A stretch of DNA of 55,086 nt from Candidatus Woesearchaeota archaeon (lineage in GTDB: Archaea > Nanobdellota > Nanobdellia > Pacearchaeales > GW2011-AR1): positions 1-55,086 of the forward strand of contig CAZAIT010000002.1 of assembly GCA_964485325.1 (NCBI GenBank). The letters are read 5' to 3'. The position numbers and the translations under genes were made by a program. The notes beneath the pieces are model-generated. The model was not told the origin of the DNA. It ran no database searches and saw only the letters and a list, made by a program, of their open reading frames with translations. Below, piece after piece: positions 21,860-31,487 of the stretch. Each line of letters begins with the position of its first letter. Position 1 is the first letter of the stretch.

Positions 21860-23693
21860 TAAGAGAGGGCAGGTGACGATTTTTATTATCGTTGCGATAG
21901 TTATAGTTGGCGGGATTATTGCATATTTTAGTTTTAAAGATAATTTTAAACAAAGCATACCATCAGATATGGAACCTGTTTATGATTATTATATTTCTTG
22001 TTTGGAAGCTAGTACGGAACAGGGGATAAAACTTCTTGGGGAGCAGGGAGGTTACATTGATTTACCAGACTTTGAACCAGGTTCACCACATATTCCATTT
22101 TCCTCGCAATTGAGTTTCTTTGGGCAGGCGGTTCCTTATTGGATGTATGTTTCCGGTAATAACTTTTTGAAAGAACAGGTTCCTAGTAAACAAACAATGG
22201 AAACTCAGTTGAATAATTACGTAAATGAAAGATTGACTGATTGTGACTTTGAAGATTTTGAAAAAATGGGATATAGTGTTTATATAGAAGAGGGGGAGAC
22301 AAGTGCTACAATAAATAATTTAGATGTTGAGCTGAATGTAAAAAACAAAATGACTATTTTTAAAGGAGATACTTCTATAATTATTGATAATCACGAGTTC
22401 TCTCTGGGAAGTAAGTTAGGGAAATTTTATGATATGGCCATCAAAGTTTATGATCATGAGAAATCTGATATGTTTTTAGAAAAATATGCTTTAGATGTTA
22501 TGAGATTATACGCCCCTGTTGATGGAGTTGAATTGGGATGTGCTCCTAAGCTTTTTATTGATGAAGATATTAGAAAAGATTTATACGAAGGGCTTGAATT
22601 GAATATGAATTCTATTAAACTTGATGGCGACTATTATAAACTATCTTCGCAAGAAAGAGAATATTTTGTAAGTGATGTTGGATTTCAAGTGGATGAAAAT
22701 GTTAACATTATGTATAACCCTACTTGGCCTACTAAGATTGAGATATATGGAGATAAAATTGTTAAACCGGTTGGTGTTCAACCAGGATTATCTGCTCTTG
22801 GGTTTTGCTATACTCCATATCATTTAGTTTATGATATAAGTTTCCCTGTGATGATTCAGTTTTATGATACTGAAAACTTTTTCCAATTCCCTGTAGGTGT
22901 TGTTATAGATAACAGCCAGGCTCGTGAAGCATTGCCTTCCAATTTTGGAAGTGTTAGTATGGAAAATGAAGTTTGTCGTTATAAGAATTCTGATATTAAC
23001 ATATATACTTATGATAGTGAGTTAATTCCAGTTGAAGCAAGAATCCAATTTAAATGTCTTGACTCAATTTGTGAAGTTGGAAGTACAAAAGTAGATAATG
23101 GAGATGCAATTTATAGTGGAGGAATTCCTCAATGCGTAAATGGATTTATTATGGCCAGTGCGGAAGGATATTTGACAAGCAAGTTTGAAATTTCTACAAA
23201 TAGTGAGGACGTTGCAAATATTATTCTGAAAAAAGAATATGATGTTGATTTAGATATGGGAGAAATAGACAAGATGGTGGTTGTTAATTTTGTTGGAGAA
23301 GATTATTCTACTACAGTAGTTTATCCAGGAACAGAGAGTGTTAGATTAGTAGAGGGAGAATATGAAATCAGTGCTTATGTTTATGAAAATTCAACTTTAG
23401 AACTTGAAGGATATAATAAAAGGATGTGTGTTGATGTTCCAGCTAGTGGAGCTGGTGGTTTGATTGGATTAGAAGAGGAAAAATGTTACGATGTTGATGT
23501 TCCAGCTATGCAAATTGATATGGCAGTGATAGGTGGTGGGCAATCTAACGAATATATCGCTGAGAGTATGCTACAAGATTCTACAAAATTAAAACTAAAT
23601 ATACCATTGTTTGATAAGCCCAATTCTCTTGAAGATTTACAAAAAAATTATGAAGAAGTCGAGAATTCAATCATATTTATGGAGTTTGAGTAA
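21843..23693 (+). CDS. large class III signal peptide (pilin-like head) protein, 616 aa
   Basis: N-terminus MQSKINKRG/QVTIFIIVAIVIVGGIIAYF. The remainder has no motif I recognise. Confidence 0.6.
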   Translation: MQSKINKRGQVTIFIIVAIVIVGGIIAYFSFKDNFKQSIPSDMEPVYDYYISCLEASTEQGIKLLGEQGGYIDLPDFEPGSPHIPFSSQLSFFGQAVPYWMYVSGNNFLKEQVPSKQTMETQLNNYVNERLTDCDFEDFEKMGYSVYIEEGETSATINNLDVELNVKNKMTIFKGDTSIIIDNHEFSLGSKLGKFYDMAIKVYDHEKSDMFLEKYALDVMRLYAPVDGVELGCAPKLFIDEDIRKDLYEGLELNMNSIKLDGDYYKLSSQEREYFVSDVGFQVDENVNIMYNPTWPTKIEIYGDKIVKPVGVQPGLSALGFCYTPYHLVYDISFPVMIQFYDTENFFQFPVGVVIDNSQAREALPSNFGSVSMENEVCRYKNSDINIYTYDSELIPVEARIQFKCLDSICEVGSTKVDNGDAIYSGGIPQCVNGFIMASAEGYLTSKFEISTNSEDVANIILKKEYDVDLDMGEIDKMVVVNFVGEDYSTTVVYPGTESVRLVEGEYEISAYVYENSTLELEGYNKRMCVDVPASGAGGLIGLEEEKCYDVDVPAMQIDMAVIGGGQSNEYIAESMLQDSTKLKLNIPLFDKPNSLEDLQKNYEEVENSIIFMEFE

Positions 23694-26600
23694 TGAAATC
23701 GTTTAGATTATTTATTACGTTATTTTTTGTTCTTGCTAGTTTTACTTGTATTGTATCAGCATTTACTAATCCTTCTGCAAGTAATAACTTTGCTTCGACG
23801 ACAAGTGATTGGCAAAGTAGTAGTCCGACTTTCGATGATTATTATAGAGGTTCTACAGATAGTTATTGGCCTATTTTAAATAATTTAGAAAATGATAAAT
23901 GTGATTCTGTAGCTAGTGATTTTATAGTTACTATCCCTATTGGAGGATGTTCACCTTCTGTTGTTCGAAGTGATTTATTGGCTGAACAAAATGTTCCAGT
24001 GTTCTGTCAACTATCTGCTATTAGAGTTAACCCATTGATTGATGTTTCAACTATTAAGAGTATTTCATTTAAAGGAGATTATCCAAAAGAGGTTGCTGGT
24101 ATTAGTTTTCATCCTGCACGTGCAGCTACGAGTAGCTCTAAAACATTATTAGGAAAACCTATAGAAGAGAATATTGGGTATGTTGTAATAGTTTTAAAGA
24201 AGCAATCAAATGAGGTGAATTTAACAGATATTATTAGAGGCAATTTGACAGCTACTATTAAATACGATTCGCGAAGTTCTTTTGGGACAGGAGCGGGTGA
24301 ATATTACCTAGAGCCTGTTAGCGATATTGAGTGGGCTAGGACTGCGGACTATTCTTCTTTCTGGGGAGGAAAAGGTTATTTACGTTTGAAAAATGTTTAT
24401 TCTGATAGTGCAACGATTGATGTTTTGACCAATCAAGATGATACGTATCAAACAGTTACATTGAAAGAGGGAGAGACTAGTTCTCCTCTTTATTATCCTG
24501 GGCAATATTGTACGAGTGCTTTGAAAATGAAGTTAAACAAAATTGACAATAGTGAAGATATGGTCAAGATTGATGTGGATGGAAATACTTTCTGGGTTAG
24601 AAAGGGGAGTAAGCTTCTCAACGGAAAATGTACTGTTACGGAATTAAATTTAATCGCTGATGAGGGTGGAGCGGAAATCAGTATTAGTTGTTCTGGAAAT
24701 AGTGTTTTAGATTTAGAGCTAACTAGAAATGAAGGGAATATTGTTAACAAAGAATACGAAAAAAGTTCAAGTATTCCAAAATATATGAACCTAGCAGAAG
24801 ATAGCGTTATAGATTTAATTGATAATTTTCCTATAGATAAAAAAGAAGATGGAGGTTACTGGGGAGAAGACGCTTTATATAATCAAATTAAATTATCTGG
24901 AGATGTTGGCGATATAGAGATGCAAAACAGTTTGATTGATAGGTTTTTAGAAATTTATCCCGAGAGCTCTCATTATGAATCTATCAGGGCTTTAAAAGTA
25001 AGGATAGGAGAGTATGATTACAGTTATGCTTCTAGAAGGTTGGTTATAAATAATGATAATTATAATATTCGTCTTGATGGGTTTAGAAAAGGTGAAGAGA
25101 ATACCAATAATGTCAGTGTTAGAATTGGAGGGGAAGATGTCAAAGTTCTTTTCGACAAAAAATCTTATAATGAGAATGGAGAAGAAATAAGTGATGACAG
25201 GTTTCCTAGGATAACTGTAGTGGATATTGATAGTTTGAGTTCCGAATTTAAATATGAGTGGAAAGAAGGTAAGGAAACGATTGAAAAAACTTTCGCGATA
25301 GATGTGGGCGATTATTCTAGTATCGGAAGAAAACGGATTTCTGTTTTGGATACTAGTGTTAGGGAAGTTGCTTATATTAGTTTAAGTCCCGTAAATTTAG
25401 ACTCAAAAACGGAAGCTAATTTTACATTTAATATTGACGTTGAAAAGCGAGCTTTTGAATTAACTCCTGAGAAGGCTAGAAACAAGTTAGATATTTTAAA
25501 CGATAGTATTAATGAATGGGAGGACAAACTTGAAACTCTTGGTAATATAGTTAAAGGAACTAAGGCTGCATGCCTTGTTACAAGTGGTGTTTTAATGCTA
25601 AAAAATACCATCTCTGGATTTAGCGGTGAAGGATTAGCTAGAGAAAAGGTTATGGATTTATATGAGAATAAATGTAAAATAGAAGGTGCTATTTCTTCCT
25701 CGGAGTTACATAGGTGTTATAGTGAAAATTCTACAGAGATTGAGCAGGCGGTTAAGGAATATGGAGCAAGTATTGATAAGGTAAACGATAAGGTAAAATG
25801 TGCGAAAACCTCTGATACGGTTAGTGATGGTTTTTTAGATAGTCAGGTTGTTGACACGAGTAAATATGTTGATAACTTGGCGAAATGTACTGGGATAAGT
25901 TCTAGTTGGGGGGGGTATAAACTTGGAAATATAACTGTTCAGAAAGAAGATTTAGTTGATGCGAGTGATTATAGTGCTGTTTTGTTAAAAGAGGAAGTTT
26001 GTAAATCTGATAGTGATACCTCAGATATTTGTAAGATGGCTACAGAGGCAATGGAAAAGGCTTTGCTTGATAATATAGTTGATATTAATATTGAGAGACT
26101 AAGAAATGAATCAAAAGAAAAGACTGGACTAGAGCTTAGTTTCACAAATTTAAATCCTGATGCTCAATTGGTTTATTATGAAAATGTACCTAAAGATATT
26201 CTTTTATCGGATGGAAGTTACATGAAAGAGGGTGCTAAATATTCTGGGGTGAATTATAACGGACTTAATTACGTTGTTACTTTAGTAGATAATGACGTAG
26301 TAAAAAATGTTTATTCGTATGACAATGGTGAGTTAAAAAAAGTAGAAAATGTAACTGTTAAGAATGGTATTTCTACATCAACTAAATTTATACCTAGTTC
26401 TTCTGAACTTTGTTCAAATACGATGATTAGTCCGTACGTTAGATATTATGAGTCTCAAAATCAGCAAGGATTTGTGGCAGTAGTTCCCCTTGACATTAAT
26501 AATGGGTGGTACGTTCATGTAGATGCAAATGATTATAGTGACGCTGGAGTTGCAAATGCTTTTCATGTTTGTAATGTGGGAAAAGACGGAATTATTGATA

Positions 26601-29524
26601 ATGGAGTTTCTGGTGGAGATATTTGTGCTGAGTTTAGGATTAGTTCTGGTTCTGATACTTATTTCACACCTTGTGTTAAAAAAACTAAAACAGAAATAAC
26701 AAAATTATATTCCGAAGCTCAAAAAGTAATTAGAGAAGCTAATACTAATAAAAACGGAATAACTATTGATGGGGAATATATTCCTAAAATTAGTCCTTTA
26801 AGTGCCAGTTCTAGCGAAGTTGAATGTACAGATTTTATGAGTGTGGAAGATTGTAACATAATGTTTAATATTTGTGATCCTGTTATTTGTCCTTCTAGTA
26901 GATGTGATTTTGGGGGAAAATTTCCGGTTGCAGATGTAATATCTACGGGGATTGTTGGTTCCATGGCTCTATGTTTACCAAATTTCGGAAGTCCAAAAGA
27001 CGGAGGAGTTATCGTTCCGATTTGTTTATCTGGAGTACATGCAGGTTTAGATTCTTACATTTCAGTTTTAAAAAGCCATAGAAGTTGCCTTGAGCAAAAT
27101 ATAGAGACTGGAGAATATATTGGGATTTGCGACGAAATTAATGCGGTTTATATCTGTGAATTATTTTGGGGACAATTTTCACCTATATTAGATACTCTTC
27201 TTCCTAAAGTTGTGGAGTCTATGTTTGGTGGTGTTCAAACCAGAGGTGGCGCTGAATACTTAACAACTCAAAAATCTTTTGATATTTTAGATAAATCTTT
27301 TGGTTATTTTACTTCAAATTATGCAGAAGGAGCAGCAAAATCTTTTGATTTAAAAAATACTGAAAGTATTGGAAGTTCTTATTGTAAGAATTTTGTTGGA
27401 GGAAGTGTGCCAACTTCATCTAGTCTCATAGATAATTTGATCTCTCCAGAAAGCCCTACACAATTTTACGCCCATTTTAGTGAAGATTTGTTTACTGAAG
27501 CTACGGTTCCTTCTACTAGCCACTATAAAGTTTATTATCATATTTATGCTGGAAACGATGCAGGGGCTCAATATAAGATATATCTGAAGAGTCCTCCAGA
27601 ATCTAGTTATTATTCGAATAGACAGACTCTGTTGGTAGATAATGGATATGTCGGCAAAGGTACTGCAGCGGATGAGTCAATTGATTTTACGGCTCCTACG
27701 GGATATAAAGAGTTGTGTGCGAATATTAATGGGAGAGAGGAGTGTGGTTTTGGAAGTGTTACTAGTGATTTTGCTTTGGATTATGTTTCACAATCATATA
27801 TTGCTGATCAAGCTGACGATAAAGGAATAACTAAAGCTGAAGATTGTGTGACTACTTCTGCAAGTGGTTGGGGGATGGCTAATTTAAATGTCCAAAATGG
27901 TGTTGAGAATAGTATAGGAGGCAGGGATATCGCTACTACTGGAATAACTAGAATTTGTGCAAGTACAAATCCAGAACAAGGAATAGTAGGAGGAAATGAT
28001 GTTTATTGTGATACAGAAGATGACGAAAGTGGATATCGATGTAGTCCTGGTTATGAATGTAAAGTTATCGGAGGAGATGTAGTATCAACTGTTGGGGTAT
28101 GTGAAAATGAAAAAGGAATTAGGCAGGTTGGCGTGAAAAGATGGATTGATGTTGGATATTGTGATAGCGAATCTGTGAGATGTTGGATCGATAGTAATAG
28201 CGTAGAAGATAACCTGGGTATCTATATGGCAGTTAACGATATAGTTAGTGTTAATGAATTAAGTTTAGAGTCTGAAGAACTGAAAGAATTAAAAGAAAAT
28301 TACGGGAATGTTAGAATAAAACTGAATGAACAAAGAGAAGCTATAAAAAATTTAAAAGTTGACTATATAAAACTAGGAGATGCAGAGTTGTTAAAAGCTA
28401 TTGATGATATAATTGAAGCATTGGACGAAGTTGCTGGAGTTAAGGATGGCTATGTTGGACAAGGTACTAATGCAGATAGAGCAGAAGCTTTAGATTTGAA
28501 AGTGAGCGTTTATATTTCTATTATTAAGGAATTGTTGACTATGAAACATAAAGATGAAGAAAAAGAGAATCCTCTTAGTGAAGCAGAGGAAAATCATCTG
28601 GGAGAAGACGCTGCTGGAGTGAAAGTTGAAAATGGGAATGAGGATGAACAAATTAAAGAGTCTGAGGAGGTTTTGTTGGAAGATGTTGCAAAAGGAGATA
28701 TTATTAAGGATGAAGAGGGAATTGAATATGAAGTTGGTATGATATCAACATTTGGGGAAGGAGAATCGAGGATTATTATTCGAATACAGGGAGTTAAGTT
28801 GGGAAATATGATTAGAATTGAAGGCAATAAGGATTCTTTACTGAAAGAGGATGGATATGAAATAGTCTCTAGTTCTTCGACAATAGAGGGAGATAAAAGT
28901 ATTTTCCATAGTGGAATTTGGGAAGCACTCGAGAAGTATGTCAATGTAAAGGCAGAGAAAGGTGTTCAAATTAGCATAAACAAAGAAGAAGATTCTATTG
29001 AGTTTAAATCTAAGAAAGAAGGCGGCCTTGCAGTTGGTGATGCAATATTTTATTTAAGTGAAGATGATACTCAATTATTGGTTGATATCACCGGGAAAAA
29101 GGAAGAATTTCCTACAGGATATTTGGAATTATTATTTATTAACAATGAAATAGAGGCTATCGCGGAAGATTTAGATTGGGAAGTGAAAAATTATTATAAT
29201 AGTATATTTCCTTTTAAAGGAGTGTGGGTGGATTTTGAAAGAGAAATTAATGAAAGAAGAAATGATTTATCTTTAGATATTAGAATAAATAGAGAGACTA
29301 TGCGTATTGAATTTGAATCTCCTGAAACGACACGGAGGATAATGCATGATGTTGAATTTTACTTAAATGAGGCCAAAGATGAAGTATTGGCTGATTTTCC
29401 TGGACGGTCTAATCCTAAGGGTTATTCCCTAGAAGAAGTTTCGAATATACTTAACGTTGATAAGTATGTAAATGGAGTTGCTCATAGATTGAATGAGATT
29501 TTGGATGGTTATAATAATAAGTAG
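23693..29524 (+). CDS. giant secreted protein (1943 aa), unknown function
   Basis: Start overlaps the upstream stop (TAATG). Sec-type signal peptide MKSFRLFITLFFVLASFTCIVSA. Cys-rich central region (CDPVICPSSRCDFGG...). Acidic, probably coiled-coil C-terminal third. Confidence 0.7.
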   Translation: MKSFRLFITLFFVLASFTCIVSAFTNPSASNNFASTTSDWQSSSPTFDDYYRGSTDSYWPILNNLENDKCDSVASDFIVTIPIGGCSPSVVRSDLLAEQNVPVFCQLSAIRVNPLIDVSTIKSISFKGDYPKEVAGISFHPARAATSSSKTLLGKPIEENIGYVVIVLKKQSNEVNLTDIIRGNLTATIKYDSRSSFGTGAGEYYLEPVSDIEWARTADYSSFWGGKGYLRLKNVYSDSATIDVLTNQDDTYQTVTLKEGETSSPLYYPGQYCTSALKMKLNKIDNSEDMVKIDVDGNTFWVRKGSKLLNGKCTVTELNLIADEGGAEISISCSGNSVLDLELTRNEGNIVNKEYEKSSSIPKYMNLAEDSVIDLIDNFPIDKKEDGGYWGEDALYNQIKLSGDVGDIEMQNSLIDRFLEIYPESSHYESIRALKVRIGEYDYSYASRRLVINNDNYNIRLDGFRKGEENTNNVSVRIGGEDVKVLFDKKSYNENGEEISDDRFPRITVVDIDSLSSEFKYEWKEGKETIEKTFAIDVGDYSSIGRKRISVLDTSVREVAYISLSPVNLDSKTEANFTFNIDVEKRAFELTPEKARNKLDILNDSINEWEDKLETLGNIVKGTKAACLVTSGVLMLKNTISGFSGEGLAREKVMDLYENKCKIEGAISSSELHRCYSENSTEIEQAVKEYGASIDKVNDKVKCAKTSDTVSDGFLDSQVVDTSKYVDNLAKCTGISSSWGGYKLGNITVQKEDLVDASDYSAVLLKEEVCKSDSDTSDICKMATEAMEKALLDNIVDINIERLRNESKEKTGLELSFTNLNPDAQLVYYENVPKDILLSDGSYMKEGAKYSGVNYNGLNYVVTLVDNDVVKNVYSYDNGELKKVENVTVKNGISTSTKFIPSSSELCSNTMISPYVRYYESQNQQGFVAVVPLDINNGWYVHVDANDYSDAGVANAFHVCNVGKDGIIDNGVSGGDICAEFRISSGSDTYFTPCVKKTKTEITKLYSEAQKVIREANTNKNGITIDGEYIPKISPLSASSSEVECTDFMSVEDCNIMFNICDPVICPSSRCDFGGKFPVADVISTGIVGSMALCLPNFGSPKDGGVIVPICLSGVHAGLDSYISVLKSHRSCLEQNIETGEYIGICDEINAVYICELFWGQFSPILDTLLPKVVESMFGGVQTRGGAEYLTTQKSFDILDKSFGYFTSNYAEGAAKSFDLKNTESIGSSYCKNFVGGSVPTSSSLIDNLISPESPTQFYAHFSEDLFTEATVPSTSHYKVYYHIYAGNDAGAQYKIYLKSPPESSYYSNRQTLLVDNGYVGKGTAADESIDFTAPTGYKELCANINGREECGFGSVTSDFALDYVSQSYIADQADDKGITKAEDCVTTSASGWGMANLNVQNGVENSIGGRDIATTGITRICASTNPEQGIVGGNDVYCDTEDDESGYRCSPGYECKVIGGDVVSTVGVCENEKGIRQVGVKRWIDVGYCDSESVRCWIDSNSVEDNLGIYMAVNDIVSVNELSLESEELKELKENYGNVRIKLNEQREAIKNLKVDYIKLGDAELLKAIDDIIEALDEVAGVKDGYVGQGTNADRAEALDLKVSVYISIIKELLTMKHKDEEKENPLSEAEENHLGEDAAGVKVENGNEDEQIKESEEVLLEDVAKGDIIKDEEGIEYEVGMISTFGEGESRIIIRIQGVKLGNMIRIEGNKDSLLKEDGYEIVSSSSTIEGDKSIFHSGIWEALEKYVNVKAEKGVQISINKEEDSIEFKSKKEGGLAVGDAIFYLSEDDTQLLVDITGKKEEFPTGYLELLFINNEIEAIAEDLDWEVKNYYNSIFPFKGVWVDFEREINERRNDLSLDIRINRETMRIEFESPETTRRIMHDVEFYLNEAKDEVLADFPGRSNPKGYSLEEVSNILNVDKYVNGVAHRLNEILDGYNNK

Positions 29525-29641: not shown

Positions 29642-29724
29642 TGAGGGAAGGAGGATTCGAACCCCCGTAGGAATAAACCACTACGGCCTAAGCGTAGCCC
29701 GTTTGACCACTCCGGCATTCCCTC
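29642..29724 (-). tRNA. tRNA-Leu (anticodon UAG), class II with long variable arm
   Basis: Acceptor GAGGGAA/UUCCCUC, D stem CCG/CGG, anticodon arm CUACG-CUUAGGC-CGUAG, T arm GGGGG-UUCGAAU-CCUCC. Confidence 0.85.
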
Positions 29725-30380
29725 ATTAAAAAAGAATAATATTCTTTCTTAAATATTAGACCATAATATTCCTTTTTATATTTTTGGTAGGTCCATTTGT
29801 CCCTTGTTGTGGGTATCCCCATATTTTTAAAGAGAATAGATAACTCTTTTTGTAATTGCTTGCTTGCTGTTGATAATCCATATCCCCGTCTTCTCTTTCC
29901 CCCTTCAGTTAGCATGATTCCTTGCAAAAAAGATTTTTGAATTTTTTTGTTTGATGTTTTTATGAATTCCGGAACTTTTACTATATGGCTTTTTTTACCA
30001 ATTGGAATCTCGAAGGTTTGATTGAATAAATTATATATTGCTTTACTATCCATTGGAATTTGCCATGATGGCTTCCTATTAATTCTTTGTTTTACAGGAT
30101 TGATACTGAATTTTCTATTGAATATTTGTATGCAGTATATCTGTATTTGTTTTAATAAATTTATATCTGTTAATTCTATTAATATTTGTTTTTTACTTTT
30201 TCTGAGGTGCCCATCTCCAATTATCGTCGCTACTATGAAAGATAATTCTTTTGTTATTTTCAGCGGAATGATTGTTTCTTTTGATGGACCATATTTAGCT
30301 TTTGTTATTAAACAATCTCTTGTTTTTGTTATTGTTTTCAGATCTTTTTGAGAATTAATTGCTGATTGTTTATAATTCAT
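29688..30380 (-). CDS. LAGLIDADG homing endonuclease, double-motif (230 aa)
   Basis: Motif 1 is FIVATIIGDGHLRK and motif 2 is FLQGIMLTEGGKRR. The last 12 codons are encoded by the tRNA-Leu 5' part, and the stop codon TAG (29688-29690) is the anticodon. Confidence 0.75.
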   Translation of the reverse strand: MNYKQSAINSQKDLKTITKTRDCLITKAKYGPSKETIIPLKITKELSFIVATIIGDGHLRKSKKQILIELTDINLLKQIQIYCIQIFNRKFSINPVKQRINRKPSWQIPMDSKAIYNLFNQTFEIPIGKKSHIVKVPEFIKTSNKKIQKSFLQGIMLTEGGKRRRGYGLSTASKQLQKELSILFKNMGIPTTRDKWTYQKYKKEYYGLIFKKEYYSFLMRECRSGQTGYA

Positions 30381-30451
30381 TATTTTATATAATAATTCAT
30401 ATTTAAGTATGTTTTGTTACCTAGCCCGTTTGACCACTCCGGCATTCCCTC
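29695..30451 (-). mobile_element. candidate 727-bp insertion unit: 30-nt direct repeats bracketing the LAGLIDADG ORF
   Basis: The sequence tagcccgtttgaccactccggcattccctc is identical at 29695-29724 and 30422-30451. Confidence 0.5.
30422..30451 (-). repeat. orphan copy of tRNA-Leu nucleotides 1-29 (30 nt)
   Basis: Exact 30/30 match to the 5' end of the tRNA at 29695-29724. Identity ends inside the anticodon stem. Confidence 0.9.
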
Positions 30452-30554
30452 GTTATAAATTTTTGAATAACGAATTTTGATTTTAAACCAAAATACTCAT
30501 TATGAAATACAATTGGTATAGTATAAAAGATTATCGGGGAGGCATTAGAATTAA

Positions 30555-31487
30555 TTATTCAACTTTTTTCTTTTTCTTTTCGTTCTCTTTGATTTTCATT
30601 TTGTCTTCCATATCAAGTCTTTCTAAAAGTTCTTTGTATCTATTTCTAATTGTTACTTCTGTAATTCCTGCTACATCTGCAACTTCTCTTTGTGTTTTTT
30701 TCTCGTCGTGTATAAGTGCTGCTACATATAGTGCTGCTGCTGCAATTCCTGCAGGACCTCTTCCAGATGTTAGTTCAGAAATTTCTGCTTTCCTTAAAAT
30801 TTTAAGAGCTTCATTTTGTGATTGTGGAGATAGATGTAGTGTTGAGGAAAATCTAGATATGTAATCTTTTGGAGAAGAAGGTTTTACTTTTAATTCAATT
30901 TTTCTAATTATAAAACGATACGTTCTTCCGATTTCTTTTCTTTCTACCTCTGATGCGCTTGAAATTTCGTCGAGTGTTCTTGGTATGTTATAAGAACGAC
31001 AGGCTGCATAAATACATGCTGCGATTACAGATTCCATTGAACGTCCTCTAACTAATCCTCTTTGTAATACGAAATTATATATCCTTGCAGATTCGTCTCT
31101 AACAACTGATGGTAAATCTAAGAAAGATGCAACTCTTCTTAATTCGGACATTGCTAATCTGAGATTTCTTTCTATTGAAGTAGACACTCGTTCTTGCCAT
31201 TTTTTTAATCTAAGATATTTCCTTGTTTGTTGTGTCGAATCTAATTTGTATATGTCGGATATTTCCCCAACGTTTGTAGTTAATCCTTTGTCAAATTTTT
31301 GCAAAGACATCGGTGCTCCACCTCTAGATTTTTTATCTGATTTATCAAATTCTCTTAATTCATGAGAAGTATCGACCATATTTTCTTCAACAAGAAGTCC
31401 ACATGCGCTGCATATAACTTCTCCTCTTGTTTCGTTGTATATAAGTTTAGAACTGTCGCACTCTGGACACTTTTTAACATTTGCCAT
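30555..31487 (-). CDS. tfb: transcription initiation factor TFB
   Basis: N-terminal zinc ribbon CPECDS...CSACG, followed by two cyclin-fold repeats. Confidence 0.95.
   Translation of the reverse strand: MANVKKCPECDSSKLIYNETRGEVICSACGLLVEENMVDTSHELREFDKSDKKSRGGAPMSLQKFDKGLTTNVGEISDIYKLDSTQQTRKYLRLKKWQERVSTSIERNLRLAMSELRRVASFLDLPSVVRDESARIYNFVLQRGLVRGRSMESVIAACIYAACRSYNIPRTLDEISSASEVERKEIGRTYRFIIRKIELKVKPSSPKDYISRFSSTLHLSPQSQNEALKILRKAEISELTSGRGPAGIAAAALYVAALIHDEKKTQREVADVAGITEVTIRNRYKELLERLDMEDKMKIKENEKKKKKVE

What the first reader, a model, noticed from the sequence alone, without database searches (positions are those of the whole stretch)
29642..30451. tRNA-Leu(UAG) preceded by an exact 30-nt copy of its own 5' end, with an intact LAGLIDADG endonuclease ORF between them that stops on the anticodon
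Seen directly: 29695-29724 and 30422-30451 are identical (30/30), 727 bp apart in direct orientation. On the minus strand this repeat is tRNA-Leu nt 1-29 by my numbering, so identity ends inside the 5' strand of the anticodon stem. The downstream copy belongs to a complete class II cloverleaf. The upstream copy is an orphan 5' fragment lying about 100 nt after the tfb stop. The spacer is filled by a 230-aa ORF with two LAGLIDADG motifs (IIGDGHL, LTEGGKRR). Its last 12 codons are read from the tRNA 5' part, and its TAG stop is the tRNA anticodon. Standard LAGLIDADG homing does not leave 30-bp duplications, and integrase-borne att duplications usually involve tRNA 3' halves and carry an integrase. 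I see three possibilities: (a) a minimal endonuclease-only element that restores its tRNA target by carrying a 5' copy; (b) a relic of a larger integrated element; (c) a 5' tRNA half or very large non-canonical intron arrangement akin to split or intron-containing archaeal tRNAs. I cannot decide among them from sequence alone.
Basis: partly seen in the sequence, partly recalled or inferred. Interest (0 to 1): 0.75.

Follow-up and report, generated by a model that had tools for sequence, protein, structure and literature searches.

The report
Endonuclease cassette inserted in tRNA-Leu
A selfish 727-bp DNA cassette, made of a homing-endonuclease gene plus its own copy of the front third of tRNA-Leu, has inserted into the anticodon loop of this small archaeon's tRNA-Leu gene; the gene still works, its old front end is left as an orphan, and related cassettes sit at the same site in many related archaea.

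Summary
The 30/30 direct repeat, the complete tRNA-Leu(UAG) and an intact two-motif LAGLIDADG ORF that stops on the anticodon are all present, and an independent 3-kb contig shows the same arrangement.

The unit is a 727-bp cassette (29692-30418): an archaeal-type promoter, a 230-aa ORF and tRNA nt 1-32. It sits between anticodon-loop positions 32 and 33 of a resident tRNA-Leu. The orphan (30419-30451) is the resident gene's displaced 5' part and matches ORF-less alleles 32/32.

More than 120 homologues across Pacearchaeota, Woesearchaeota and Nanoarchaeota show the same ORF/tRNA-Leu overlap. Upstream 5' remnants range from complete to 12-nt vestiges. Relatives with the same tfb neighbour have empty sites.

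ORF-linked tRNA alleles nearly always differ at the insertion site. They carry either a C30:G40 swap or a BHB intron at 30/31 or 37/38, which fits target immunity. The ORF is under strong purifying selection (dN/dS 0.06-0.10).

No BHB motif joins the two copies, no integrase is present, and orphans decay in relatives. These results argue against the giant-intron, split-tRNA and prophage-relic readings.

The closest analogue is the fungal mitochondrial endonuclease mORF that carries a duplicated gene end. I found no report of this arrangement for tRNA genes or for Archaea.

The parts
29642..29724 (-). Functional tRNA-Leu(UAG), class II, contiguous. Its anticodon stem is CTACG/CGTAG (C30:G40), the type typical of ORF-linked alleles.
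   Evidence: Rfam RF00005, 53.7 bits; ARAGORN; stem typing.
29692..30418 (-). The 727-bp cassette: promoter-like leader, LAGLIDADG ORF and an element-borne copy of tRNA nt 1-32. It is inserted between canonical tRNA positions 32 and 33.
   Evidence: The repeat period is 727. Boundaries come from comparison with empty sites and with other occupied loci. L005 keeps both flanks of the broken resident gene, abutting at 32/33.
29688..30380 (-). Intact 230-aa monomeric two-motif LAGLIDADG endonuclease ORF. Codons 220-230 and the TAG stop are read from tRNA nt 2-37, and the stop is the anticodon.
   Evidence: PF14528. AF2 model with pLDDT 92.8 matching intein endonuclease domains and I-DmoI/I-Tsp061I. 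D56 and E/D159 conserved in 31/31 sequences. dN/dS 0.06-0.10.
29695..29724 (-). Proximal (element-borne) copy of the 30-nt repeat, i.e. sequence nt 1-30 of the working tRNA. It also encodes the ORF tail RECRSGQTGY.
30419..30451 (-). Orphan: the displaced 5' part (canonical nt 1-32) of the resident tRNA-Leu gene, of the G30 'CTAGG' allele type.
   Evidence: 30/30 identity to the proximal copy. 32/32 identity to ORF-less alleles L081/L098, and 34/35 (including two flanking bases) to L100/L102.
30400..30419 (-). Conserved cassette leader TAACAAAAC-ATACTTAAATA, which resembles an archaeal BRE/TATA promoter. The ATG lies exactly 30 nt after the 9-mer, which implies a leaderless or near-leaderless mRNA.
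   Evidence: The motif CAACGAAAC followed by AT.TAT.AA occurs at a fixed 30-nt distance from the ATG in most of 29 distinct loci. Promoter function is inferred.
29743..29783 (-). ORF 3' segment (codons ~199-213, KYKKEYYGLIFKKE) with suppressed synonymous change. It is a candidate internal promoter for the tRNA, lying about -62 to -30 from tRNA nt 1.
   Evidence: Synonymous divergence (pS) is 0.18-0.66 in codons 196-218, against 0.66-0.75 in the rest of the ORF. ORF nt 595-627 are 94% invariant among four cassettes. Function is inferred.
30521..30537 (-). Native tRNA-Leu promoter element (CCGATAATCTTTTATAC) just after tfb. It is shared with the empty-site relative L070.
30452..30504 (-). Older scar: the native +1 context CATAAT-GAG followed by a 44-nt block that precedes the orphan. 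The block is homologous to one upstream of tRNA-Leu 5' pieces in ORF-less relative L104, so it predates the cassette.
30555..31487 (-). tfb (transcription factor B), the conserved upstream neighbour used to find empty and occupied sites in relatives.

Best explanation
**What it is.** This is a free-standing LAGLIDADG homing-endonuclease cassette living inside the tRNA-Leu(UAG) gene. The mobile unit (727 bp here) has three parts: its own BRE/TATA-like promoter, the endonuclease ORF, and a copy of tRNA nt 1-32 fused in frame to the ORF's 3' end. It sits between positions 32 and 33 of the resident gene. The element-borne 5' part joins the resident 3' part to rebuild a working tRNA. The resident 5' part is pushed upstream as a non-functional orphan.

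**Inferred mechanism (not shown).**
- The endonuclease cuts ORF-less tRNA-Leu genes at the anticodon stem/loop.
- The break is repaired from an occupied allele. The orphan or vestige (tRNA nt ~20-32) serves as the left homology arm and tRNA nt 33-85 as the right arm, so the cassette is copied in.
- Occupied alleles escape cutting because the site is changed (C30:G40, C38) or interrupted (BHB intron at 30/31 or 37/38).
- Orphans then decay to a conserved ~12-nt vestige.
- Recombination between the two 5' copies can delete the cassette and leave an 'immune' empty allele.

In this window the insertion is recent, because the orphan is still perfect.
For: **Shown**
1. *Anatomy.* The repeat, tRNA and ORF are as described.
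2. *Endonuclease.* The AF2 model (pLDDT 92.8) has the I-DmoI/intein-endonuclease fold. Both motif acidic residues are conserved in 31/31 sequences. dN/dS is 0.06-0.10 at saturated dS.
3. *Family-wide arrangement.* There are more than 120 homologues. In most of the closer GTDB loci (L001-L030) the ORF 3' end overlaps a tRNA-Leu(UAG). The tail 'MRECRSGQTG' is the translated tRNA.
4. *Empty sites.* Relatives with 84-95% identical TFB have tfb, the native promoter and tRNA-Leu with no ORF (e.g. L064, L065, L070, L077, L081, L098). Each occupied lineage has ORF-less loci as its nearest non-identical TFB neighbours.
5. *Origin of the orphan.* It equals the 5' part of ORF-less alleles (32/32) and lies in a pre-existing context shared with L104.
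6. *Graded series of orphans.* They are complete in the window, L005, L009 and L041, partial in L080 and L076, and 12-nt vestiges elsewhere. All are fused to the same motif exactly 30 nt before the ATG.
7. *Both broken ends retained.* L005 keeps a 5' piece up to nt 32 and a 3' piece from nt 33. Their acceptor strands pair with each other but not with the inserted tRNA.
8. *Altered target.* ORF-linked uninterrupted alleles are C30:G40 in 14/18 cases, against 10/48 for ORF-less alleles (odds ratio 13, p=3e-5, uncorrected for phylogeny). Seven further ORF-linked alleles keep the 'sensitive' exon sequence but have a BHB intron exactly at 30/31. Others have an intron at 37/38.
9. *Recent event.* The nearest cassettes (87% identity; L080, L144) have only vestiges, while the window has a perfect orphan.
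Against: - No biochemical evidence shows that the protein cuts DNA, or where it cuts.
- The target, the immunity of C30:G40 or intron alleles, and homing itself are all inferred.
- Ten ORF-less alleles carry C30:G40 and three ORF-linked alleles carry G30:C40. The association is not absolute and is not phylogenetically corrected.
- tfb and the ORF are both saturated at synonymous sites, so horizontal transfer could not be separated from long vertical inheritance with repeated loss.
- The vestige is conserved far beyond neutral expectation, and this is unexplained. The homology-arm and operator ideas are speculation.
- No route is known for bringing two alleles into one DPANN cell, and no viral copy was found.
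- L006, L011, L020 and L024 show rearranged forms in which the tRNA lies upstream or is inverted. The simple model does not predict these.
Confidence: 0.75

Rival explanations
1. Domesticated LAGLIDADG protein. The ORF is no longer mobile and serves the host, for example as a DNA-binding regulator of its own promoter and the tRNA-Leu promoter, or as an RNA-processing helper. It is inherited vertically with tRNA-Leu. The orphan would then be an incidental local duplication.
For: Purifying selection is strong over saturated synonymous divergence. Linkage to one tRNA gene is very stable across phylum-level distances. The tRNA-derived vestige next to the ORF promoter is conserved and could be a binding site. 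Foldseek also hits the LAGLIDADG-derived regulator WhiA, but far more weakly than it hits nucleases.
Against: Presence is patchy among close relatives, and perfectly good empty sites exist. Both catalytic acidic residues are retained in 31/31 sequences. ORF-linked alleles differ systematically at the insertion site, and orphans end precisely there, which a regulator does not predict. Fresh and decayed orphans imply repeated insertions.
Confidence: 0.12
2. Giant non-canonical intron or split tRNA. The orphan is a used 5' exon or 5' half that is joined by BHB splicing (cis or trans) to the 3' part. The ORF would lie in a 727-nt intron.
For: Relatives do have a true BHB intron at 30/31, one or two nucleotides from the junction. 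Archaeal LAGLIDADG genes classically live in BHB introns. The orphan keeps an upstream TATA-like element. In L009 the 3' acceptor strand pairs perfectly with the orphan and with one G.U to the proximal copy.
Against: A complete contiguous tRNA is present and needs no splicing. An exhaustive scan found no 4-bp central helix with flanking helices linking the two sites. The best candidate has 1+1 flanking pairs, whereas the L017 control folds into a clear motif. Splicing at the only palindromic option would give a G30.G40 mismatch. In L005 the orphan's acceptor does not pair with the adjacent tRNA. In most loci the orphan has decayed to 12 nt. No other copy or 3' half is present in the window.
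Confidence: 0.04
3. Relic of a larger integrated virus or plasmid that used tRNA-Leu as its attachment site. The repeat would be an att duplication and the ORF a leftover cargo gene.
For: tRNA genes are common integration sites. This locus has other scars in relatives, including 5' pieces with a ~70-nt insert in L067/L104 and small ORF insertions after tfb.
Against: There is no integrase or any other element gene between or beside the repeats. The flanks are tfb and a host-like 1943-aa protein. More than 30 loci from different lineages share the same minimal boundaries. Occupied and empty sites differ by the cassette only. The duplicated part is fused in frame to the ORF. No homologue was found in IMG/VR.
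Confidence: 0.04
4. Assembly artefact (repeat expansion or chimera).
For: The source is metagenome-derived sequence, and no reads are available here.
Against: An independent 3-kb contig is identical across both copies. The same architecture appears in unrelated assemblies (L005, L009, L041). The two copies have different, meaningful flanks.
Confidence: 0.02

Closest known systems
Fungal mitochondrial mobile endonuclease ORFs (mORFs) that carry a duplicated gene end: Allomyces macrogynus atp6, Glomus atp6/atp9/cox2/nad3, Rhizopus atp9 (PMC3630166, which cites Paquin et al. 1994)
   Same: A free-standing endonuclease ORF is inserted inside an essential gene. The element brings its own copy of the displaced gene part, fused in phase. 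The native part stays beside it as an untranslated or unused remnant. The native remnant matches the element-free relatives better than the element-borne copy does.
   Different: Those elements sit in protein-coding genes of organelles and duplicate the 3' (C-terminal) end. This one sits in a chromosomal tRNA gene of Archaea and duplicates the 5' end. The tRNA sequence itself is used as coding sequence and the anticodon as the stop codon.
Intronless and collaborative homing by free-standing endonucleases (phage T4 SegG/MobE, PMC2790892; cyanophage F-CphI next to the psbA intron, PMC6083498)
   Same: The endonuclease gene lies beside the gene it targets. The linked allele is protected by sequence change or by an intron at the cleavage site, and flanking markers are co-converted. 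Here, seven ORF-linked alleles carry an intron exactly at the inferred site.
   Different: Those are GIY-YIG, HNH or EndoVII enzymes in phages and sit between genes. Here the enzyme is LAGLIDADG, the host is cellular and archaeal, the ORF overlaps the target gene, the protecting intron is a BHB intron, and a partial gene duplication is part of the element. Cleavage was not tested.
Archaeal intron-encoded LAGLIDADG endonucleases (I-DmoI, I-Tsp061I, I-PorI) in rRNA BHB introns
   Same: The fold is the same and both are monomeric two-motif enzymes (Foldseek TM about 0.7 normalised to the target). Both are archaeal and target a structural RNA gene.
   Different: Sequence identity is only about 20%. 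This ORF is not inside an intron, no BHB motif encloses it, and it has its own promoter.
tRNA-targeting integrative elements (att duplication)
   Same: A partial tRNA copy flanks an insertion and the tRNA gene stays intact.
   Different: There is no integrase, the 5' rather than the usual 3' part is duplicated, the insert is 727 bp, and the duplicate is translated as part of the ORF.
Split and permuted tRNA genes of Nanoarchaeum and Thermoproteales
   Same: An orphan 5' tRNA fragment with its own promoter-like element occurs in a DPANN genome, and the break lies next to a known intron position.
   Different: A complete gene lies alongside. There is no complementary leader and no 3' half, and the fragment decays in relatives.

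Membership tests
LAGLIDADG homing endonuclease (monomeric, two-motif) | Two LAGLIDADG helices, each ending in a catalytic acidic residue | tested here: met
   The motifs are IIGDGH (D56) and TEGGKR (E159). D56 is conserved in 31/31 sequences and E/D159 in 31/31. PF14528 E=2e-9.
LAGLIDADG homing endonuclease (monomeric, two-motif) | Pseudo-symmetric alpha-beta-beta-alpha-beta-beta-alpha double domain fold | tested here: met
   AF2 model with pLDDT 92.8 and pTM 0.90. Foldseek hits: TliVMA intein endonuclease E=1e-12, I-DmoI E=4e-9 (TM 0.65-0.72 normalised to the target), I-Tsp061I E=3e-8.
LAGLIDADG homing endonuclease (monomeric, two-motif) | Site-specific double-strand cleavage of a ~20-bp target | not testable with these tools
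   This needs the purified protein and tRNA-Leu DNA substrates.
Homing (mobile) endonuclease element | Presence/absence polymorphism at one homologous site, with precise empty sites | tested here: met
   Ten of the 80 TFB-anchored metagenome loci are occupied, and more than 30 have tfb followed by tRNA-Leu with no ORF. Apart from duplicate contigs of the same lineage, the nearest TFB neighbours of each occupied locus are ORF-less.
Homing (mobile) endonuclease element | Occupied allele lacks an intact target (changed or interrupted) | tested here: inconclusive
   There is a strong association: C30:G40 in 14/18 ORF-linked alleles against 10/48 ORF-less ones, plus introns at 30/31 or 37/38. The target itself is inferred, exceptions exist, and there is no phylogenetic correction.
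Homing (mobile) endonuclease element | Horizontal spread (incongruent element and host trees) | tested here: inconclusive
   Synonymous sites are saturated for both tfb and the ORF. The fresh orphan here, set against vestiges in the nearest cassettes, suggests a recent gain.
mORF-type 'gene-end-carrying' endonuclease element | The element carries a copy of the displaced gene segment, and the native segment is retained as a remnant matching element-free relatives | tested here: met
   The orphan is 32/32 identical to ORF-less alleles L081/L098, while the proximal copy differs at position 30. L005 has divergent native pieces around an inserted tRNA.
Archaeal BHB intron | Bulge-helix-bulge (or relaxed) motif at both splice sites | tested here: not met
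   A scan of all 5'/3' site pairs found no central helix with flanking helices of 2 bp or more on both sides. The L017 short intron, used as positive control, folds correctly.
Integrative element at a tRNA att site | Integrase/recombinase and element genes between direct repeats | tested here: not met
   The LAGLIDADG ORF fills the space between the repeats; the other small ORFs there merely overlap it. No integrase domain was found.
Split tRNA gene | Separate 3' half with a leader complementary to the sequence after the 5' half, and no intact gene | tested here: not met
   An intact gene is present. The window holds only two copies of the 5' sequence. Orphans are degenerate in relatives. The rest of the genome was not available.
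Group I intron | Catalytic RNA core | tested here: not met
   No Rfam hit other than tRNAs in the whole window at gathering threshold. Only 37 nt of the 727 lie outside the ORF.

The most novel reading that the evidence does not exclude
The cassette and the position-30/31 BHB intron form an archaeal 'collaborative homing' pair. The endonuclease repeatedly breaks tRNA-Leu genes at the anticodon stem/loop. This breakage would select for introns or stem swaps as immunity. It would also generate promoter-bearing orphan 5' halves and, as in L005, orphan 3' halves. On this reading, endonuclease attack is a direct source of non-canonical tRNA introns and of the fragmented or split tRNA genes seen in DPANN archaea. 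The conserved tRNA-derived vestige next to the ORF promoter would act as the enzyme's own operator or homology arm. Distant family members sitting beside or inside other tRNA genes (L046, L061, L062) would make this a tRNA-gene-specialised endonuclease clade.
Probability: 0.2. Interest if true: 0.85.

Novelty: new variant of a known kind. Interest (0 to 1): 0.66.

Why it matters
Free-standing homing endonuclease genes are generally thought to be limited to intergenic sites, because inserting inside a gene would destroy it (stated in PMC13405050). This family gets around that limit without an intron or intein. It carries a replacement for the part of the tRNA it displaces, and it uses the tRNA sequence as its own coding end and the anticodon as its stop codon.

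The finding has four consequences:
- It gives a concrete, testable case of an arms race at a single essential tRNA gene, with stem swap and BHB intron as candidate immunity.
- It links endonuclease activity to the origin of non-canonical tRNA introns and tRNA gene fragments.
- It implies regular DNA exchange among uncultured Pacearchaeota and Woesearchaeota, since a selfish endonuclease kept under purifying selection needs new targets.
- It explains a recurrent annotation oddity: a 'hypothetical protein' overlapping tRNA-Leu in more than 100 DPANN assemblies.

The enzymes would also be new ~20-bp-specific meganucleases with a known, conserved target.

Tried and rejected
- **Giant BHB intron.** I enumerated all splice-site pairs between the two copies and found no motif. 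Rejected.
- **Orphan flank as a degenerate ORF 3' tail (two nested cassettes).** The local alignment is not better than shuffles (571/2000). The 8-nt extension of the repeat is also not significant. Rejected. The 44-nt block is instead shared with ORF-less L104.
- **Decayed 3' tRNA remnant after the window's tRNA (TTAGAACCCTGTGCTTCGATTCC).** This segment resembles conserved downstream sequence in L077/L079 (L076 by eye), not a tRNA piece. Dropped.
- **Vertical versus horizontal history from dS.** Both tfb and the ORF are saturated. Uninformative. Three tfb comparisons were also frame-shifted by an N-terminal indel and were ignored.
- **Viral carriage.** No homologue in IMG/VR.
- **Group I intron or other RNA family.** No hit at Rfam gathering thresholds.
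- **Literature.** Five full-text searches found no description of a LAGLIDADG gene in or at DPANN tRNA genes. The library is incomplete, so this is absence of evidence only.
- **Promoter scanner.** The sigma-70 promoter/terminator tool was not used because it does not model archaeal promoters.
Full report
**1. Observation**

On the minus strand the region reads as follows. The tfb gene (30555-31487) is followed by a native tRNA promoter element, CCGATAATCTTTTATAC (30521-30537). Next comes a short scar (30452-30504), then a 5' tRNA fragment (30419-30451). After that are a 41-nt leader, a 230-aa ORF (30380-29688) and a complete tRNA-Leu(UAG) (29724-29642).

The 30-mer GAGGGAATGCCGGAGTGGTCAAACGGGCTA occurs exactly twice, 727 bp apart, with none expected by chance. 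The ORF is a LAGLIDADG_3 protein. Its stop codon is the anticodon TAG, and codons 220-230 are tRNA sequence.

A separate 3-kb JGI contig is 100% identical across both copies.

**2. The arrangement is a family trait**

A protein search returned more than 120 homologues from Pacearchaeota, Woesearchaeota and Nanoarchaeota, many of them exactly 230 aa. The C-terminal 'LMRECRSGQTG' is simply the translated tRNA acceptor and D arm. It is kept even in homologues at 39-45% identity.

In 62 GTDB loci, a tRNA-Leu(UAG) starts about 35 nt before the ORF stop in most of the closer ones (L001-L030). ARAGORN mislabels some of these where a short intron is present.

Complete upstream orphans also exist in L005, L009 and L041, and a truncated one in L038. 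Elsewhere only the last ~12 nt of the orphan survive (consensus AAA.AGG..AGG, equivalent to tRNA nt ~20-31). This vestige is always fused to CAACGAAAC-AT.TAT.AA, and the ATG lies exactly 30 nt after the 9-mer in most of 29 distinct loci.

That block looks like an archaeal BRE/TATA promoter placed for a leaderless mRNA. This reading is an inference from established archaeal promoter geometry.

**3. Empty sites and the identity of the orphan**

I used TFB as an anchor and retrieved 80 metagenome loci with 84-95% identical TFB. Ten carry the ORF. More than 30 have tfb, then a CTTTTTATAC-type promoter, then tRNA-Leu, with nothing in between. Apart from duplicate contigs of the same lineage, each occupied lineage has ORF-less loci as its nearest TFB neighbours.

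The window's orphan is 32/32 identical to the first 32 nt of the ORF-less alleles L081 and L098. Including two flanking bases, it is 34/35 identical to L100 and L102. The junction therefore lies after canonical position 32, at the start of the anticodon loop.

The 44-nt block in front of the orphan is shared with ORF-less L104, so the orphan sits in a pre-existing resident context.

L005 preserves both broken ends of a resident gene. The 5' piece runs to nt 32 and the 3' piece starts at nt 33. Their acceptor strands pair with each other (GCAGGGA/TCCCTGC), and they surround the cassette plus a different, complete tRNA. This places the insertion site at 32/33.

The window's cassette is therefore 29692-30418, which is 727 bp.

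**4. The ORF-linked tRNA alleles differ at that site**

- Among uninterrupted alleles, 14 of 18 ORF-linked genes have C30:G40 (usually with C38). Among ORF-less genes the figure is 10 of 48, and 35 of 48 have G30:C40. The odds ratio is 13 with p=3e-5, not corrected for phylogeny.
- Vestiges and orphans carry the G30 type.
- Seven other ORF-linked alleles keep the G30-type exon sequence but have a 35-47-nt BHB intron exactly at 30/31, and the ORF then ends inside the intron.
- Several more have an intron at 37/38.

This is the pattern expected if the enzyme recognises the anticodon stem/loop of naive alleles and the linked allele must be uncuttable. ORF-less C30:G40 alleles such as L070 share the window's promoter. 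They are candidates for cassette loss by recombination between the two 5' copies.

**5. The protein looks active**

- The AF2 model has pLDDT 92.8, and only residues 224-230 are disordered.
- It matches intein endonuclease domains and the archaeal intron enzymes I-DmoI and I-Tsp061I.
- The acidic residue in each motif is conserved in 31/31 sequences.
- dN/dS is 0.06-0.10 among four cassettes whose synonymous sites are saturated.
- Synonymous change is suppressed in codons 196-218, about -62 to -30 from the tRNA start. This suggests an internal tRNA promoter overlapping the ORF (inference).

**6. Rival explanations**

*Giant BHB intron or split tRNA.* The scan found no motif, while a genuine short intron (L017) folds correctly as a control. 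The working gene is contiguous. Orphans decay or mismatch in relatives.

*Integrated-element relic.* No integrase is present, the boundaries are minimal and identical in many lineages, and there are no viral homologues.

*Domesticated regulator.* This cannot be excluded without biochemistry. It fits the long-term purifying selection and the conserved vestige. It does not explain the patchy presence, the retained catalytic residues, the site-specific allele differences or the fresh orphans.

**7. Mechanism**

*Shown:* the anatomy, the insertion site, the polymorphism, the allele association and the selection on the ORF.

*Inferred:*
- The enzyme cuts naive tRNA-Leu genes near positions 30-34.
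- Repair from an occupied allele uses the vestige or orphan as the left arm and tRNA nt 33-85 as the right arm.
- The recipient's own 5' part becomes a new orphan, which then erodes.
- Recombination between the direct repeats can remove the cassette.

The perfect orphan here contrasts with the vestiges next to the two closest cassettes (87% identity; L080, L144). This argues for a recent invasion in this lineage.

**8. Comparison with known systems**

The closest analogue is the fungal mitochondrial mORF. That element inserts into atp6, atp9, cox2 or nad3 with a foreign copy of the gene's C-terminal end and leaves the native end as a remnant (PMC3630166). The present element mirrors that arrangement: the duplication is at the 5' end, and the host is a chromosomal archaeal tRNA gene.

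It also resembles intronless and collaborative homing by free-standing phage endonucleases (PMC2790892, PMC6083498). I found no report of LAGLIDADG genes in or at DPANN tRNA genes. Archaeal group I and BHB intron surveys place such ORFs in rRNA genes only (PMC6125680).

**9. Verdict**

The feature is real and non-artefactual. It is a new variant of a known kind: a gene-end-carrying homing-endonuclease element. It forms a large and previously undescribed family.

Three main uncertainties remain: whether the enzyme cleaves DNA, how much of the spread is horizontal, and why the vestige is conserved.

Noticed in passing
L104 1590-1900; L067 (region between the tfb stop and tRNA-Leu): ORF-less relatives carry nested duplicates of the native promoter plus the tRNA-Leu 5' piece GAGGGAATGCC. 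Each duplicate is interrupted by a ~70-nt element (TACGCTACTC...CACTC) that replaces tRNA nt 12-16, and is followed by a GGTCAAACGG-TTTGACC hairpin. This is a second, unrelated kind of insertion with 5'-piece duplication at the same gene.
   Followed up: partly
L083 and L084, between tfb and tRNA-Leu: A degenerate tRNA 5' piece (AAGAAATGCAGCGTCAAAGACG) followed by a second copy of the CTTTTATACC promoter, upstream of an intact tRNA-Leu with no endonuclease ORF. This is another old scar.
   Followed up: no
L005 4745-4797: A complete 3' part of a second tRNA-Leu (from nt 33 to the acceptor end) lies 6 nt after the ORF-linked tRNA. Its acceptor strand pairs with the upstream orphan but its anticodon-stem strand does not, which suggests that the orphan's last ~12 nt came from the donor.
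   Followed up: partly
L046 3869-4813 (Micrarchaeota); L043 4647-4769: A distant homologue (24-27% identity) lies antisense inside an apparent 854-nt interruption of a class II tRNA gene, at about position 38/39 (ARAGORN call). This may be a true ORF-containing tRNA intron or another kind of insertion.
   Followed up: no
L061 4654-4786; L062 4702-4852: Distant homologues (24-28% identity) lie just upstream of other, intron-bearing class I tRNA genes. The wider clade may therefore specialise on tRNA genes in general.
   Followed up: no
L006, L011, L020, L024: These are rearranged forms. The ORF tail is no longer tRNA-like at the DNA level but is still homologous as protein (..EC....IL..F). It is followed by only a 3' acceptor remnant (e.g. 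TCTTCCCCGCA). A complete tRNA-Leu lies upstream, on the same strand in L011 and L024 and inverted in L006 and L020.
   Followed up: partly
window 30372-30380 and 30392-30400 (minus strand): A 9-nt duplication, ATGAATTAT, in the cassette leader creates a 6-codon upstream ORF ending 1 nt before the endonuclease ATG.
   Followed up: no
window 23693-29524 (+): A 1943-aa ORF with an N-terminal signal-like sequence converges on the tRNA-Leu 3' end. It is probably a giant secreted or surface protein of the kind common in DPANN genomes.
   Followed up: no
L063, L066, L067, L076 (between the tfb stop and the tRNA promoter): Different small ORFs (300-700 nt of extra DNA) are inserted right after tfb in different relatives, so this intergenic spot is a general hotspot for insertions.
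   Followed up: no
window 29743-29783 (minus strand): A stretch of the ORF (KYKKEYYGLIFKKE) is almost invariant at the DNA level among cassettes that are otherwise saturated at synonymous sites. It may be the tRNA's promoter embedded in coding sequence.
   Followed up: partly
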